DNA of 64,000 bases from Octopus vulgaris. Lineage: Eukaryota. Made by a program: the position numbers. The stretch covers positions 34,658,001-34,722,000 of the forward strand of contig OX597831.1 of the NCBI GenBank assembly GCA_951406725.2, in the 5' to 3' direction. Below, in pieces: positions 11,001 to 51,100 of the stretch (the stretch's first letter is position 1; the number at the start of each line of letters is the position of its first letter).

Positions 11001-14000
11001 TTGTATTTTGGGACGCTGAAAATAAATTCAAAAAACATAAGAATAAGTTCCTTCATATATCAAATTGGGAAATTAACAATTTAAACAACAATAGCATACA
11101 AAAGTAAAAATTGAAAATCGTAAGTATTCATTCACATAGAATATATAAAACAAGATCGACCTTGAACCAGCTTTTTCAAATGTTTAGTAACAGCTGAAAG
11201 AAAACAATGATAGATTTTCTTTTCCACTCTTCTTTCTCTTTAATAGTCGTAATAATAATTCAAAAAGAAGAATTAGCATTAAGATTTGTACTTAAACTTT
11301 GAAACAAAACTTTCTATTGTTACATTATTTGATTTGTAATTTGTAAGTTTATTTCATAGAAGTGAATGGAATTTAAAAACTGGACATAGCTTTTTTCTTT
11401 TTCTTCCTTTAAAATGGTTCAGGTATTTGAAAGGAATGGATTTACTGTGGATTCTAACAGTTATAATAAATATAGCAGCAGCAAAAACATAGATGAAATC
11501 AACTGAAGAGAAAAAAGATAATAAAAAGAACTGGCCATGGTAGTTGTGGGTTTAACTAGTAATATAATGACTTAAGGATATGGAAAACAACACACACACA
11601 CACATTTATAACAGGAACATTTGTAAAAACAAACAAAATTGGTCTTATTTTTGTACTTGGTTAAGATATTTTGTGTTCTAATGGCTTTAAAAGAACAGGA
11701 CAGATATAAAACAATAAAACTGCTTCTTCCAACATGTATTCACCAAATTGAAACACTGAATACGTATATGGTCATGAATTAACAAACATAGCAACCAATA
11801 CTCAATAACAAGTCGATGACAACATTATGTTCTTAACTTTAATAATGTGTGCTTGTGTGTGTACATTAACATTTACTAGTGTGACAAGTTATTTCGTTAC
11901 ATTATCTAAGCTTATCTTGCTTTCCTACCATTCAAGGCAAGGCATTTATGTTTGCAGCTAATTTTTTTTTTTTGCATTGCTTGCCAATTTCTTAGCATCC
12001 ATTTTCACACACAATCTTTCATCTTGTATTTATCATAAAACTTTAAAGATAAACTGAAGGCATATCCAGCTGTCACTTGCATGTAAGTATCACTCAATAA
12101 CATGTACCTTGCTTTCACTAATTGTTTAAGGCACCTGTGTAATCAGAAGCAGACAGGCACCCTCTTGAGCCCTGCAGCACTGAACTTGCACCCAGCCAAT
12201 ACTCATTTACAATTGAGTAGCCTAGAGTAATGTGAAAGGAAGCTCTTGTTTGAAGGATACACACAAAGTGAAGTCCAGTCCAAGAATTGAACACCCAACC
12301 TTATGGATGTGAAATTAAACACATTAAGCTTTCACAGGTATACACAGAGAAAGCTTGCACATGTTTGTGGTTTGATGTGGCCTAGGCAGCACTGGCATAA
12401 TACATATCAATTTCTTTCTTTCCTGCTGATAAAAGGTTTATGAACAGATGTTTCGGCGTCATTTTTGCTTTCTTGACTTTTTCTTCTGTGTGTGTGATGT
12501 CCTGTAATTCCTGTTATTTTGTCAGTGCAGTATGCTTATGTTGATAAGTGTTACGGCTGGTCATTTCTGATGTTCATTAAGGGCTGGTATATTCCATTGG
12601 TACATGAATCTGGTATTTGGAATATAATCTAACAAATTGACAACCTGCTAAATATTGTGTTCATTCATATAACATCAAAATGTTGAGTTGATGTTTAAAT
12701 TTAAAACTGTCTAATACAAGTGGTTTTGGGGGCCGGTTAATAAAAGACTAATGGTGACCATGTGCAGGTTTGTATAAAAAATAACCAAGAGTATTAAAAT
12801 GCCCGATTTGAATGGTGATCAAATTATATGTCAAACACCTTATATCTACCTGTTCATCTGTGTACAGCTTTCTCTGAAATCTGAGTCAACCCAAACAAGA
12901 CTATAACTACTCAATAGTAATGTAGTAATTGAGTCTATCACTCACTTAAATGTAGTAGGGAAGAGATCTTTGCTTAATATAACATAGTTTAGGAAATTAA
13001 CCAGAATCTAACACAAGACAAAATAATATACTGCATTGAGGAATAATCCATGAGTATTTTTTCAAGTTTAAAAATGCATGCAGAATTAAAATGTATCAGC
13101 AAAATGTCTTATGTTATTCGAAAAAGAATGTTTTGCCCTAAAAGAGAGTGCTTTGATTTTTTAAATTTTATTGATTTTTATGTATTTTCAGATGATTAAA
13201 ATGGAATGTCAAGTGGACAAAACTGAGCATTTTCGACACCATTTACTTTTTGCATTTAATCGAGGTGTTAACCCCACTGAGCTGCTCGTGAGATTTGTGC
13301 TGTGTACAGAGAAGGAGCAATGCCTCAAAGTACCACCTGATGTTGGTTTCCATGCTTCAAAAATGGGTATTCTGACCTCAAGGATGGATCACACACTGGT
13401 CGACCAATTGAGTTTGATGAACATGAACCTTGCTCATTGAGCAAAGGTCGTTCACCAATTTTTTTATTTTTTATTATCATAATCCATCTGCTCTGCCACT
13501 TCTCTGGTCATTTGACGAGGATTTTTGTGAAGAAGTTAATTCAATCACTCTTCATCAAACTCAATTGGTCGACCAGTGTGTGATCTGTCCTTGAGATCAA
13601 AATTCCCATTATTGTAGTGTGAAAACCAACGGCGGGTGGTATTTTAAGGCATTGCTCTTTCTCCATACACAGCACAAATCTCACAAGCAGCTTTGGTGGG
13701 GGTTAACACCTCGATTAAATGCAAAAAGCAAATGGTGTCGAAAATGCTCAGTTTTGTCCCATTTGACATTCCATTTTAATCATCTGAAAATACACAAAAA
13801 TCAATAAAATTAAAAAATCAAAACACACTATCTTGTAGGGCAAAAAAATTCTCTTTCAAATAACATAAAACATTTTGCCAATGCATTTTATTTCTGCATG
13901 CAGTTTTAAATTGGGGGGGGGGGTGAACGCTCATGAATTATTCCTCAACCCAATATGTAGGCTGACAGGACATATAAAGCTTCATTTATAGCATGACATG

Positions 14001-48100: not shown

Positions 48101-51100
48101 TAAGCATAGAAATAAATGATGATACCAAAAAAGAAAAACTAAATTAACTAAAATTTCTTTGCAGCAACTATGGGAGATAACACCAGACAAGCTGTAGTCT
48201 TATTCTGATCTCATCAGTGAACCACACCCTTCACAATACTTAAAACAGCAATGAAGGGTTTCGTTGAAAGAAAACCATCAGGGTAACACAGAATAAGATA
48301 GACATGGTTTCAAAACCCAATGAAAATTTGTCAGGGATAATGAAGTTGCTAAAAACAATTTAATTCAAAAAATACTAGAAAGACTAAATTGTTGGCAACA
48401 AAATAGATGTGCAAATTGTCTCAGTAAAAAGTACACAGATGCATGTGAAGATTGGTGTGCATGCATGTGCATGTAAACTTCTGCAAAATACTAGCGTGTT
48501 TCAAATTAGCATTCTTCATATTCTGGTTCTTTCCGAAGATTTATAAGGGATTTTCTTTTTGTTTCCATTAACTATACACCCACCTAACACATTTACAAGA
48601 CTAATGTACAGAGCAAATCACAAATATATGTTCCTCTTTAAATGAAAAAGAAGAAAAAGGTAAAAAAAATAATAATAATAATACTGAAAATAAAAAAGAG
48701 AAAATACAAGACAAACTTATTTGTTAGCAAAGTTTTGCAAAGTTGACTCAAACTAAAACTTACTCTCTTTTTTCTTGCTTTAATTTCTGTCTTTTTCTGT
48801 TCAATATCCTTTTGCATCTCAGCATACCAGAAATCAACAAAGAAGTGAGAATCTGTATAAAATTTGATACTATCTTTTCCATCCTCCCTGGAAAAACAAG
48901 AAAACAAAAAGTAAGCATGTGTTAATCATTTTGTAATATTATCATCTAATTTTGTTTTTAAAACATATGCACAAGGCTTGGAATTTCAAGGGAGAGACTG
49001 GGGTTAGCTGACTGAACTGACTCCAGTTGGTTGTTACTTTAACAAAGGCAAAGTTGACCTCTAAAAAGCTAGAGCAAATATTACATGGCACTTTGTCTGA
49101 TGCTTGAATGATTCTGCCAATCCACTGACACTATTTTTTAAATCAATAATAATCACTTCTTGTAATGATGAGGGGACGTTACAAGGGCAAGTCAAGAAGT
49201 TATAGTATGAAGAAAAGAAGCATAAAATTAGGTGTATAAAAAGATGAAATGTCAGAATAGGAAGTCTTTTGGCGAAGATCAAGGTCTAATATCTATTCTT
49301 ATCAGCCAGACAGCACCAATAACAGAACTCTAGCCTCACATACCCTCTCTCAACAAAGTCTCCAACCTAGAGCTCATGTTGAAAGAAGAAATTCACTTGG
49401 GTTATTTCACTCACCACTCTTACCCAAATTTCAGCTAATCTACTGGAGCACCTTCCTCTCTAAGTGGGATTTGATGAAGGGCTGGCTGAAGAAAAACTGC
49501 TCATCATTGGTGTCTTCAACCTTGTCCACTATAAAACCACTTACACGATAGTCATCAACCCTAGTTGATAGCTGAATCTATCTTACATGCAACAGTAAAT
49601 TTGACATAATCCCCCCCCCCCCCCAAGTCAGCAACAGTCAGACACTGAACAAGTGCAAACACTGGTTTTGGCCAATGCTAATATCTCACACAAGTCCACT
49701 TGACAGCAATTTCAAACTGTGGAATTTATCCTGAACTCGTCACACTCTTGCAAGCTTACCTATCCACCCATACTTTCTATTCCATGATCCCTCTTCTCTC
49801 TCTTATATTTACCTTGTACCTTGAGAGTTTACCAGCACCATCCATCCCTCTTTCTTTCCAGCTGAGGAAGCCATGTATCTCCTGTTTAGCAAGACACTCA
49901 CTACTGTCTCTCTCTATTCTTTTCTACTCTAGGCACAAGGCCTGAAATTTTGGGGAAGGGGAGGGGGGTCAGTCGATTAGATCAACCCCAGTATGCAACT
50001 GGTACGTAATTTATCAACCCTGAAAAAATGAAAGGCAAAGTCAACCTCAGTGGAATTTGAAAACAGAACGTAAAGACGAAATACTGCTAAGCATTTCGCC
50101 CGGTGTGCTAACATTTCTGCCAGCTCGCCGCCTTACTGTTTCTGTAATACTATCATATTCTTCAATACTATACCTGTCTCATTTAGGTGTGTGTGTGTGG
50201 GGGGAGTGGGGTTTGGTCTCGTAAGTAATTTGATGACATCACTTGGCATTAGGAAGAGCAACATAGACACTGAAGTTTGACATTGTCCTCTGCTTCATAG
50301 GTTCCTGTCAAACAGTCCAACCAATGACAGCATGGAAAACAGACATAACAATGATAAGGACAGCAATACCACCCCATATTAACACTACGAAGACAAGGAT
50401 TTCTTGAAAATGTTCACAGGCTCTTGGCTGAAAGTCTTGGCTGGAAGATTTGACTGTTCTCTTCATCTTGATATCTAGGGCCACTTGAGAGCATTGTTCT
50501 TGCCTATCACTAAACCTCTGCAGAATGTAAGAGCTGTTGTGCCACTGACCATATGAGAGAGCCTGATATCATTTCAAATACTAGATGACCAATCTTATCA
50601 TCTGTTGACACAGGACCACAGTCAAACGTATGAGCTGTGGGTAGACATGCCTGAGAAAAGGTGACTACTTCTGTCCACTGATCATGAATCTCTCCCAGTA
50701 AATACTGCAGCCTCGGGAGACATCAGCATTGACATACCAAACTCTTCAGGACCTTCTGATTAGTGGAAAACACTCCTTCTAGAAGGAAACAAGCAGACTC
50801 TAAATAACAGAAGCAATGTTTGTCAACACTGCTTAATGTTTCTGATGATACATAGAACAATCAGACAGATAGAAGGGTGAAATACTAAGAGGGGAAGGGA
50901 GAAAGAGAGAAATCACTTTACTAACATAGCACTGTTCAAGTGGGCTACTTCATAGGTAGAACCATTGGCAGCTGTCTTCTACTGAGTGTGGGCATATACA
51001 TTTATCCATCATTTAAACGTATGTCATGCACTTCAGTTGAGAAAAGATTAAAGACTAAGGTGAAAGCAAAGGCTGACCATTTTGAATTGCAAATATATTT

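What the first reader, a model, noticed from the sequence alone, without database searches (positions are those of the whole stretch)
11016..48763. Candidate battery of frame-preserving microexons in the 37.7 kb intron splitting the WAVE basic region
Seen: the intron between ...KARKKR and RPKIQEARH... is phase 0. TE-poor, U-rich islands within it (about 15.5-17.8, 22.2-24.9, 38.0-39.3 and 44.4-48.7 kb) hold AG-exon-GT units that are multiples of 3 with no stop: 45451-45477 NEAWLYSGD, 38814-38840 GVIFSATSK, 38546-38554 LLR, 24094-24108 VITAQ, 23409-23417 DNV, 22707-22724 SITSNH, 17524-17538 RWLLE. Known: 3-27 nt neural microexons are driven by Srrm/eMIC proteins through UGC motifs near the 3' splice site, and the WAVE basic region binds acidic phospholipids next to the WRC-assembly domain. 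Inference: combinatorial inclusion could tune the charge and spacing of this region and diversify WAVE in a cephalopod. Some candidates will be chance matches in 38 kb.
Basis: partly seen in the sequence, partly recalled or inferred. Interest (0 to 1): 0.85.

Follow-up and report, generated by a model that had tools for sequence, protein, structure and literature searches.

The report
One annotated microexon, six chance matches
In the long intron of an octopus WAVE gene, one of seven proposed tiny exons (15 bases, encoding VITAQ) is already part of a public gene model, while the pattern as a whole is no more than random sequence gives.

Summary
The minus-strand gene is the Octopus bimaculoides WAVE (WASF3-like) gene. 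The phase-0, 37,748-nt intron between ...KARKKR and RPKIQEARH... is as described. All seven AG-exon-GT units sit at the stated coordinates.

The pattern is not above chance:
- The sense strand holds 910 such units, against 907 +/- 37 in composition-matched simulations.
- The two wrong reading frames give 918 and 983.

One candidate is corroborated. 24094-24108 (VITAQ) encodes exactly the five residues that the RefSeq model XP_014771476.1 carries between KARKKR and RPKIQ. It has UGC at -11 and a 68-nt AG-free zone. The insert is absent from a second octopus model, from a cuttlefish model, and from 5 of 5 nearest non-cephalopod WAVE proteins aligned.

Nothing supports the other six. RNA-seq and cephalopod genomes were out of reach.

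Verdict: one already-annotated 15-nt microexon that splits the polybasic region, not a combinatorial battery.

The parts
57434..57587 (-). WAVE coding exon (VSLQDIHLRKPY...LEKLDRF, WAVE homology domain part)
   Evidence: tblastn of P0004; acceptor ttgtttag and donor gtatgt read
48764..48887 (-). WAVE coding exon ending in the first half of the polybasic stretch (...QKKTEIKARKKR), donor gtaagt
   Evidence: 100% identity to P0004
11016..48763 (-). If the VITAQ exon is used it is two introns: 24109-48763 and 11016-24093.
24094..24108 (-). 15-nt microexon GTGATCACAGCTCAG = VITAQ. Acceptor ...ttgttgctgttatag has UGC at -11 and a 68-nt AG-free zone. Donor is CAG|gtttgt.
   Evidence: Identical to the insert in XP_014771476.1 = P0004. 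Only place in the window that encodes VITAQ. Splice-score rank 9 of 910. Sequence read.
9854..11015 (-). Large WAVE coding exon: second half of the polybasic stretch (RPKIQEARHIRPVKTKK), proline-rich region, start of WH2
8119..8306 (-). Last coding exon (central and acidic regions, stop TAA)
23409..23417 (-). Unsupported candidate DNV (9 nt). Best splice-score of all 910 units, UCUC-rich tract, 103-nt AG-free zone, no UGC. Lies 676 nt downstream of the VITAQ exon.
   Evidence: in no protein model seen
45451..45477 (-). Unsupported candidate NEAWLYSGD (27 nt); good acceptor, poor donor gtatag; rank 24 of 910
38814..38840 (-). Unsupported candidate GVIFSATSK (27 nt); rank 3 of 910
38546..38554 (-). 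Unsupported candidate LLR (9 nt); rank 560 of 910; UGC at -23 and -11
22707..22724 (-). Unsupported candidate SITSNH (18 nt); rank 44 of 910; another AG only 3 nt upstream of its acceptor
17524..17538 (-). Unsupported candidate RWLLE (15 nt); rank 104 of 910; another AG 7 nt upstream of its acceptor

Best explanation
The long intron in the basic region of the Octopus bimaculoides WAVE (WASF3-like) gene holds one real microexon, 24094-24108 on the minus strand. It is 15 nt, phase 0 to phase 0, and encodes Val-Ile-Thr-Ala-Gln.

When spliced in, it puts five uncharged residues between KARKKR and RPKIQEARHIRPVKTKK. That separates the two halves of the polybasic stretch, at the C-terminal end of the last helix of the WAVE homology/meander region.

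The other six candidates are ordinary chance AG...GT pairs of the kind that occur about 24 times per kb in this AT-rich intron. The 'battery' is not a feature.

Shown: the sequence, its splice dinucleotides, its frame, and its identity to the insert in a public RefSeq protein model.

Inferred:
- The RefSeq insert rests on spliced RNA-seq reads. As I recall, Gnomon models are built largely on RNA-seq, and a 15-nt exon 13 and 25 kb from its neighbours is not something an ab initio step would place.
- It is a cassette exon, sometimes skipped, because every other WAVE model seen lacks it.
- Its inclusion is of the neural Srrm/eMIC type (UGC at -11, long AG-free zone, pyrimidine tract).
- It changes the spacing or charge density of the membrane-facing basic patch rather than WRC assembly.
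For: Gene identity:
- The exon protein P0001 finds O. bimaculoides WASF proteins at 100% identity over residues 1-110.
- P0004 matches human WAVE1 chains 7usc_C, 3p8c_D and 4n78_D at E 4.7e-54 to 9.1e-51.

The microexon:
- P0004 (XP_014771476.1) reads KARKKR-VITAQ-RPKIQEARH.
- 24094-24108 translates to VITAQ with AG before and GT after. It is the only VITAQ-coding site in the 64 kb on either strand.
- My rough estimate is that such a site would arise by chance in the intron about 7e-5 times (own arithmetic, not a tool result).
- Splice-site rank is 9 of 910. UGC lies at -11. The AG-free zone is 68 nt, against a 90th percentile of 41 for all units.
- These features are listed for eMIC exons in PMC8797185 (passage read).

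Chance nature of the rest:
- 910 units against 907 +/- 37 simulated.
- Frame controls 918 and 983; other introns 22-26 per kb against 24.1 here.
- Islands 22.5 per kb against 24.7 outside; UGC in 2 of 7 against a 28% background.
- High-scoring units are 1 on the sense strand, 1 on the antisense strand and 0.8 in simulations.

Position in the protein:
- The junction aligns to about residue 182/183 of human WAVE1, at the end of its K/R run.
- In the AlphaFold model, helix 154-186 ends here, with pLDDT falling from 82 to 57 to 38 (the model is poor overall, mean pLDDT 47).
Against: - No transcript evidence was seen directly. XP_014771476.1 is a computed model.
- The other O. bimaculoides model (P0003, UniRef) and the cuttlefish model P0005 lack the insert. 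That is equally what one expects if automated pipelines miss microexons, if the exon is noise, or if it is octopus-specific.
- No skipped isoform from a transcript was seen, so 'cassette' is inference. The exon could be constitutive.
- The donor gtttgt departs from the consensus at +3 and +4.
- UGC near the acceptor is found in 28% of chance units, so it says little.
- Conservation could not be tested.
- The candidate DNV scores better than VITAQ on splice sites (rank 1), so splice scores cannot exclude further real exons.
Confidence: 0.65

Rival explanations
1. One reading: several of the seven units are genuine alternative microexons, included in combinations, so that the basic region of WAVE is diversified in charge and spacing.
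For: One of seven picks is the annotated exon, although random picking from 910 units would hit it with probability 7/910. Four of the picks rank 1, 3, 9 and 24 of 910 by splice-site score. DNV (23409-23417) has a UCUC-rich tract and a 103-nt AG-free zone only 676 nt downstream of VITAQ.
Against: There is no excess of units by any of four controls. None of the six appears in the three cephalopod protein models seen. Two of them (22707, 17524) have another AG 3 and 7 nt upstream of the proposed acceptor, and LLR ranks 560 of 910. [quoted passage not shown]
Confidence: 0.07
2. Nothing in the intron is a functional exon. The VITAQ insert in the RefSeq model comes from rare noise splicing or a mis-chained alignment, and mature WAVE mRNA joins 48764 directly to 11015.
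For: Two of three cephalopod models, and 5 of 5 non-cephalopod WAVE representatives aligned, lack any insert at this junction. The donor gtttgt is non-consensus. No paper found mentions a WAVE/WASF microexon.
Against: The model's five residues match an AG/GT-flanked, in-frame 15-mer deep inside the intron. From recalled knowledge of how RefSeq models are made, a gene-prediction pipeline would place this only on spliced-read evidence. The acceptor has a long AG-free zone, a pyrimidine tract and a UGC.
Confidence: 0.12
3. VITAQ is a real but constitutive exon of octopus WAVE. It is simply missed by the other annotations and carries no regulatory meaning.
For: In the collection searched, the only RefSeq protein for this gene contains it, with no isoform label. 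The UniRef model P0003 is visibly poorer: it has an extra 26-residue segment and a missing Pro-rich segment. Its lack of VITAQ therefore weighs little.
Against: All non-octopus WAVE proteins aligned join the two basic halves directly. A 15-nt exon with a weak donor in a 37.7-kb intron is typical of regulated microexons (general knowledge; PMC8797185 passage).
Confidence: 0.16

Closest known systems
The annotated model itself: RefSeq XP_014771476.1, 'Wiskott-Aldrich syndrome protein family member 3-like' of Octopus bimaculoides (P0004)
   Different: The window differs from it by one residue (S for N in YG.QNRT) and by a longer Pro-rich segment in exon 9854-11015. It contains none of the other six candidates.
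Srrm234/eMIC-dependent neural microexons of bilaterians (PMC8797185, abstract start and passages read)
   Same: 15 nt, frame-preserving, UGC close to the 3' splice site (-11), long AG exclusion zone (68 nt), pyrimidine tract, and a weak 5' splice site as reported for fly eMIC exons.
   Different: Neural inclusion and dependence on Srrm were not tested. UGC occurs upstream of 28% of chance units. No conservation data.
Cytohesin-1 3-nt microexon that switches phosphoinositide preference (PMC6314551; search listing and abstract start only)
   Same: A tiny in-frame exon placed in or beside a lipid-binding basic element, changing how a regulator of the leading edge meets the membrane.
   Different: Different protein and domain (a PH domain, one glycine). 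For WAVE the effect of the insert on lipid binding is pure inference.
Human WAVE1 basic region as seen in WRC structures 3P8C, 4N78 and 7USC
   Same: The octopus KARKKR aligns to the end of the human K/R run (about residues 177-182). The junction falls just after it.
   Different: Human WAVE1 has three residues where octopus has either none or VITAQ (alignment). The five invertebrate representatives aligned have none. Whether the human gene has an intron here was not looked at.

Membership tests
WAVE/SCAR (WASF) proteins | N-terminal WAVE homology domain | tested here: met
   P0004 residues 1-228 align to human WAVE1 chains at E 4.7e-54. Window exons are 100% identical to P0004 there. Note: the Pfam copy on hand returned no family, although one search lists a precomputed PF27560.1.
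WAVE/SCAR (WASF) proteins | Polybasic region after the homology domain | tested here: met
   KKTEIKARKKR | RPKIQEARHIRPVKTKK read directly.
WAVE/SCAR (WASF) proteins | Proline-rich region and C-terminal WH2-central-acidic module | tested here: met
   Poly-Pro run in exon 9854-11015. The C-terminal stretch 522-605 aligns to the WAVE1 VCA region, weak on its own (i-Evalue 0.2). It is conserved in all 8 sequences of A2.
Microexon (3-27 nt, frame-preserving cassette) | Length 27 nt or less, multiple of 3, AG/GT flanks, no stop | tested here: met
   All seven candidates, but also 903 other units in the intron.
Microexon (3-27 nt, frame-preserving cassette) | Present in a transcript or gene model | tested here: inconclusive
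   Met for 1 of 7 (VITAQ, in the computed model XP_014771476.1). No transcript reads could be seen. The other 6 are in none of the 3 cephalopod models.
Microexon (3-27 nt, frame-preserving cassette) | Alternative use (both inclusion and skipping) | not testable with these tools
   No RNA-seq. The cluster members that might hold isoforms could not be listed.
Srrm/eMIC-dependent neural microexon programme | UGC near the 3' splice site, long AG exclusion zone, pyrimidine tract | tested here: inconclusive
   VITAQ: UGC at -11, AG-free zone 68 nt (above the 90th percentile of 41), 65% pyrimidines. UGC is in 28% of all units and in only 2 of the 7.
Srrm/eMIC-dependent neural microexon programme | Neural-specific inclusion that depends on the eMIC domain | not testable with these tools
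   Needs tissue RNA-seq or Srrm perturbation.
Srrm/eMIC-dependent neural microexon programme | Conservation of the exon and its flanks in related species | not testable with these tools
   Genome contigs holds only bacteria and archaea. Protein level: the cuttlefish model lacks the insert.
   910 against 907 +/- 37. Frames 918 and 983. Other introns 22-26 per kb against 24.1. Islands 22.5 against 24.7 per kb. High scorers 1 against 1 (antisense) against 0.8 (simulated).

The most novel reading that the evidence does not exclude
Besides VITAQ, at least one more of the candidates is spliced in, so octopus WAVE would have four or more variants of its membrane-binding basic patch. These would differ in spacing and charge, as a lineage-specific elaboration in the cephalopod nervous system. 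The best candidate is DNV at 23409-23417. It has the top splice score of 910, a UCUC-rich tract and a 103-nt AG-free zone, lies 676 nt downstream of VITAQ, and would add an acidic residue.
Probability: 0.1. Interest if true: 0.5.

Novelty: already known. Interest (0 to 1): 0.22.

Why it matters
The WAVE basic region is described as a membrane phosphoinositide target (PMC3270453, passage read). It has also been proposed to contact the acidic tail within the molecule (PMC8464821 and PMC11799376, passages read). A regulated 5-residue spacer in the middle of it would be a simple way to retune membrane recruitment or autoinhibition of the WAVE regulatory complex in particular cells. None of my searches found a description of such a variant.

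That makes the VITAQ exon a reasonable small target for RT-PCR and lipid-binding assays. It is a single exon already present in RefSeq, however. The larger claim of a combinatorial battery is what would have been striking, and the sequence gives no support for it.

Tried and rejected
- **Isoforms in the protein clusters.** The listing of cluster members did not complete, so the 4 members of the P0004 cluster stayed unseen.
- **More cephalopod proteins.** Two further word-index searches around the junction returned the same three proteins, plus P0155. P0155 is a 97-residue ORF that runs from the exon through the donor into intron sequence, so it is unspliced and uninformative.
- **Distant WAVE proteins.** The representative search gave 987 hits at E <= 0.001, of which 150 were listed. 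I aligned only 5 of those 150: P0006-P0009 and P0023, the ones matched end to end in one stretch. I left the other unnamed hits unused. An insert at this junction elsewhere in animals is therefore not excluded.
- **Recursive splice sites in the long intron.** The pattern YYYYNYAGGTRAGT with 1 mismatch gave 2 matches against 4.3 expected. Rejected.
- **Structured RNAs.** No Rfam family reached gathering score in the 64 kb.
- **TE proteins or a nested gene.** No stop-free frame longer than 142 codons lies within the intron. I did not scan these frames against any library.
- **A repeat family shared by two candidates.** Candidates 22707 and 17524 share only a 13-mer.
- **Structure.** The AlphaFold model of P0004 is poor (mean pLDDT 47.2, pTM 0.20). 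I use it only for the helix end near the junction.
- **Literature.** 'microexon' with 'cephalopod', 'octopus' or 'WASF', and WAVE complex with polybasic and splicing, found no paper on a WAVE microexon. The two WASF hits I opened were irrelevant.
- **One relevant preprint.** 10.64898/2026.09.05.749416 quantifies O. bimaculoides exons with vast-tools. It does not name WASF or WAVE in its main text. Its supplementary tables, which I could not see, may list this exon.
- **Splice-site scoring.** It used frequency tables recalled from memory and serves for ranking only.
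Full report
**What is at the coordinates.**
The gene lies on the minus strand. Exon 48764-48887 translates (from 48886) to EDGKDSIKFYTDSHFFVDFWYAEMQKDIEQKKTEIKARKKR and is followed by gtaagt. Exon 9854-11015 follows ttttcag and begins RPKIQEARHIRPVKTKK. It continues through a long proline-rich region. 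The intron between them (11016-48763) is 37,748 nt and phase 0, and the window contains no N.

A search with the large exon alone (residues 1-110 of P0001) found three proteins:
- two Octopus bimaculoides WASF proteins at 100% identity: P0003 (a UniRef model, 590 aa) and P0004 (XP_014771476.1, 'WASF3-like', 608 aa);
- one cuttlefish protein at 78%: P0005 (Acanthosepion pharaonis).

P0004 matches human WAVE1 chains of the WAVE regulatory complex structures (7usc_C, 3p8c_D, 4n78_D) at E 4.7e-54 to 9.1e-51. The Pfam copy on hand returned no family for it, although one search lists a precomputed PF27560.1.

The other coding exons in the window are 57434-57587 and 8119-8306. Residues 1-89 of the protein are not encoded in the window.

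Searches were made with single exons, or with the public protein P0004 as the tool returned it. The joined step was left out.

**The seven candidates exist, but the pattern is chance.**
The same definition (3-27 nt) is met by 910 units on the sense strand of this intron. Four kinds of control show no excess:
- 50 first-order Markov simulations of the intron give 907.0 +/- 37.2. The antisense strand has 723.
- Asking for stop-freeness in the two irrelevant frames gives 918 and 983.
- The gene's other intronic stretches have 26.0, 25.9 and 22.0 units per kb, against 24.1 here.
- The four 'islands' have 22.5 per kb, against 24.7 outside them.

I also scored splice sites with a simple weight matrix built from recalled frequencies, which is good for ranking only. 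Units with positive acceptor and donor scores and a total of at least 6 bits number 1 on the sense strand, 1 on the antisense strand and 0.83 on average in 30 simulations.

The seven rank 1 (DNV), 3 (GVIFSATSK), 9 (VITAQ), 24 (NEAWLYSGD), 44 (SITSNH), 104 (RWLLE) and 560 (LLR) of 910. UGC within -27..-4 of the acceptor occurs in 2 of the 7 (VITAQ and LLR), against 28% of all units.

Three of the four islands are U-rich (T 0.40-0.43, against 0.35 for the intron). The island at 44.4-48.7 kb is not. 'TE-poor' could be judged only by self-similarity within the window: 19% of the intron has another copy, and none of the seven lies wholly in such a copy.

**One candidate is corroborated.**
In the alignment of the three cephalopod proteins, XP_014771476.1 reads KARKKR-VITAQ-RPKIQEARH. 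P0003 and the cuttlefish protein join KARKKR directly to RPKIQ.

By my own rough arithmetic, an AG/GT-flanked site encoding a given five-residue peptide would turn up by chance in this intron about 7e-5 times. The model's insert therefore derives from this site.

From recalled knowledge of how RefSeq Gnomon models are built, a 15-nt exon lying 24.7 kb and 13.1 kb from its neighbours would be placed only on spliced-read evidence. I could not see that evidence.

Its acceptor region (...cacttaatttcatgattttgttgctgttatag) has these features:
- a UGC at -11;
- a 68-nt AG-free zone, where the median over all units is 10 and the 90th percentile is 41;
- 65% pyrimidines;
- a possible branch site, ttaat.

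The donor is CAG|gtttgt, which departs from the consensus at +3 and +4. These features fit the architecture reported for eMIC-dependent microexons in flies: long AG exclusion zones, UGC near the 3' splice site, and weak splice sites (PMC8797185, passage read). They are not discriminating on their own.

**Where it falls in the protein.**
The junction splits KKTEIKARKKR from RPKIQEARHIRPVKTKK. In the HMMER alignment to human WAVE1, the octopus KARKKR lies over the end of the human K/R run (about residues 177-182). Human WAVE1 has three residues where octopus has VITAQ or nothing.

The five nearest non-cephalopod WAVE representatives that I aligned have no residues in these columns. They are P0006-P0009 and P0023, 5 of the 150 listed out of 987 hits.

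An AlphaFold model of P0004 is poor overall (mean pLDDT 47.2). It shows a helix at 154-186 ending at the insert, with pLDDT falling from 82 to 57 to 38.

So the insert sits at the end of the last helix of the complex-embedded part, inside the basic patch. Reviews describe the basic region in two ways:
- as a PIP3 membrane target (PMC3270453, passage read);
- as a proposed intramolecular partner of the phosphorylated acidic tail (PMC8464821 and PMC11799376, passages read).

Five uncharged residues there would separate two basic clusters. That this alters lipid binding or autoinhibition is inference.

**What is not shown.**
- I saw no transcript data.
- I could not list the members of the P0004 cluster, which might hold isoforms or other octopus species (one search did not complete).
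- Two further searches around the junction added only P0155, an ORF that reads through the donor into intron sequence and so is unspliced.
Conservation of any of the seven sites stayed unchecked.
- Whether VITAQ is alternative or constitutive, neural or not, and Srrm-dependent or not, is open.
- For the other six candidates there is no evidence for them, and only weak evidence against. SITSNH and RWLLE have another AG 3 and 7 nt upstream of the proposed acceptor, and LLR ranks 560 of 910.
- DNV (23409-23417) is the best-looking unit of the whole intron. It ranks 1, has a UCUC-rich tract and a 103-nt AG-free zone, and lies 676 nt downstream of VITAQ. It appears in no model seen.

**Literature.**
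Searches for 'microexon' with 'cephalopod', 'octopus' or 'WASF', and for the WAVE complex with polybasic and alternative splicing, found no description of a WAVE microexon.

A 2026 preprint quantifies O. bimaculoides exons with vast-tools but does not mention WASF or WAVE in its main text (10.64898/2026.09.05.749416, passages read). Its supplements, which I could not see, may list this exon.

[quoted passage not shown] This speaks mildly against an unusual cephalopod elaboration.

The nearest functional analogue I met is the 3-nt microexon of cytohesin-1, which changes phosphoinositide preference (PMC6314551, search listing and abstract start only).

**Verdict.**

My estimates:
- about 0.8 that 24094-24108 is a real exon;
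- about 0.6 that it is alternatively included;
- about 0.35 that it belongs to the neural Srrm-type programme;
- about 0.1 that any of the other six is used.

Interest is low to modest.

Noticed in passing
window 10040-10165 (minus strand), inside exon 9854-11015: The window encodes ...SPPPPIETLSSVPMAPT followed by a long proline run. Both public octopus models lack this part of the segment: P0004 has a shorter Pro run, and P0003 skips to SLTTTS. The window also has S where both models have N in YG(S/N)QNRT. Likely an assembly or model difference, or a polymorphism.
   Followed up: partly
outside the window (upstream of 64000 on the gene's strand): The UniRef model P0003 has an extra 26-residue segment (DHFMKG...KFSR, then M for V) between ...ATVEE and SLQDI. 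Neither this segment nor residues 1-89 of the protein are encoded anywhere in the window. It could be another alternative exon or a model error.
   Followed up: partly
window 17547-17559 and 22729-22741 (minus strand): An identical 13-mer lies just upstream of the acceptors of two candidates (RWLLE and SITSNH). There are 2 matches against 0.26 expected, and 1 of 100 shuffles reached 2. The flanks share nothing else. Unexplained, possibly chance.
   Followed up: yes
window 23409-23417 (minus strand): The DNV unit has the best combined splice-site score of all 910 units, a UCUC-rich pyrimidine tract and a 103-nt AG-free zone. It lies 676 nt downstream of the VITAQ exon. It is in no protein model.
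   Followed up: partly
alignment A2, protein P0009 (unnamed invertebrate WAVE representative): P0009 has a 13-residue insert exactly at the preceding exon junction (between ...LDKLI and FREDGKD, corresponding to the window junction 57434|48887). It may be an alternative exon or a retained piece in another species.
   Followed up: no
window 23043-23221, 35967-36157, 33669-33831, 44108-44180: Long microsatellites, (TA)91 and (AC)95, and two short tandem duplications of 79 and 36 nt inside the intron.
   Followed up: no
protein P0155 (97 aa, source 'lgn'): This ORF is identical to exon 48764-48887. It then reads through the donor into intron-like sequence that differs from the window's intron after five residues. 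It is probably an unspliced or genomic fragment from a related octopus.
   Followed up: no
whole window: No Rfam family reaches gathering score on either strand. No stop-free frame longer than 142 codons lies within the long intron.
   Followed up: yes
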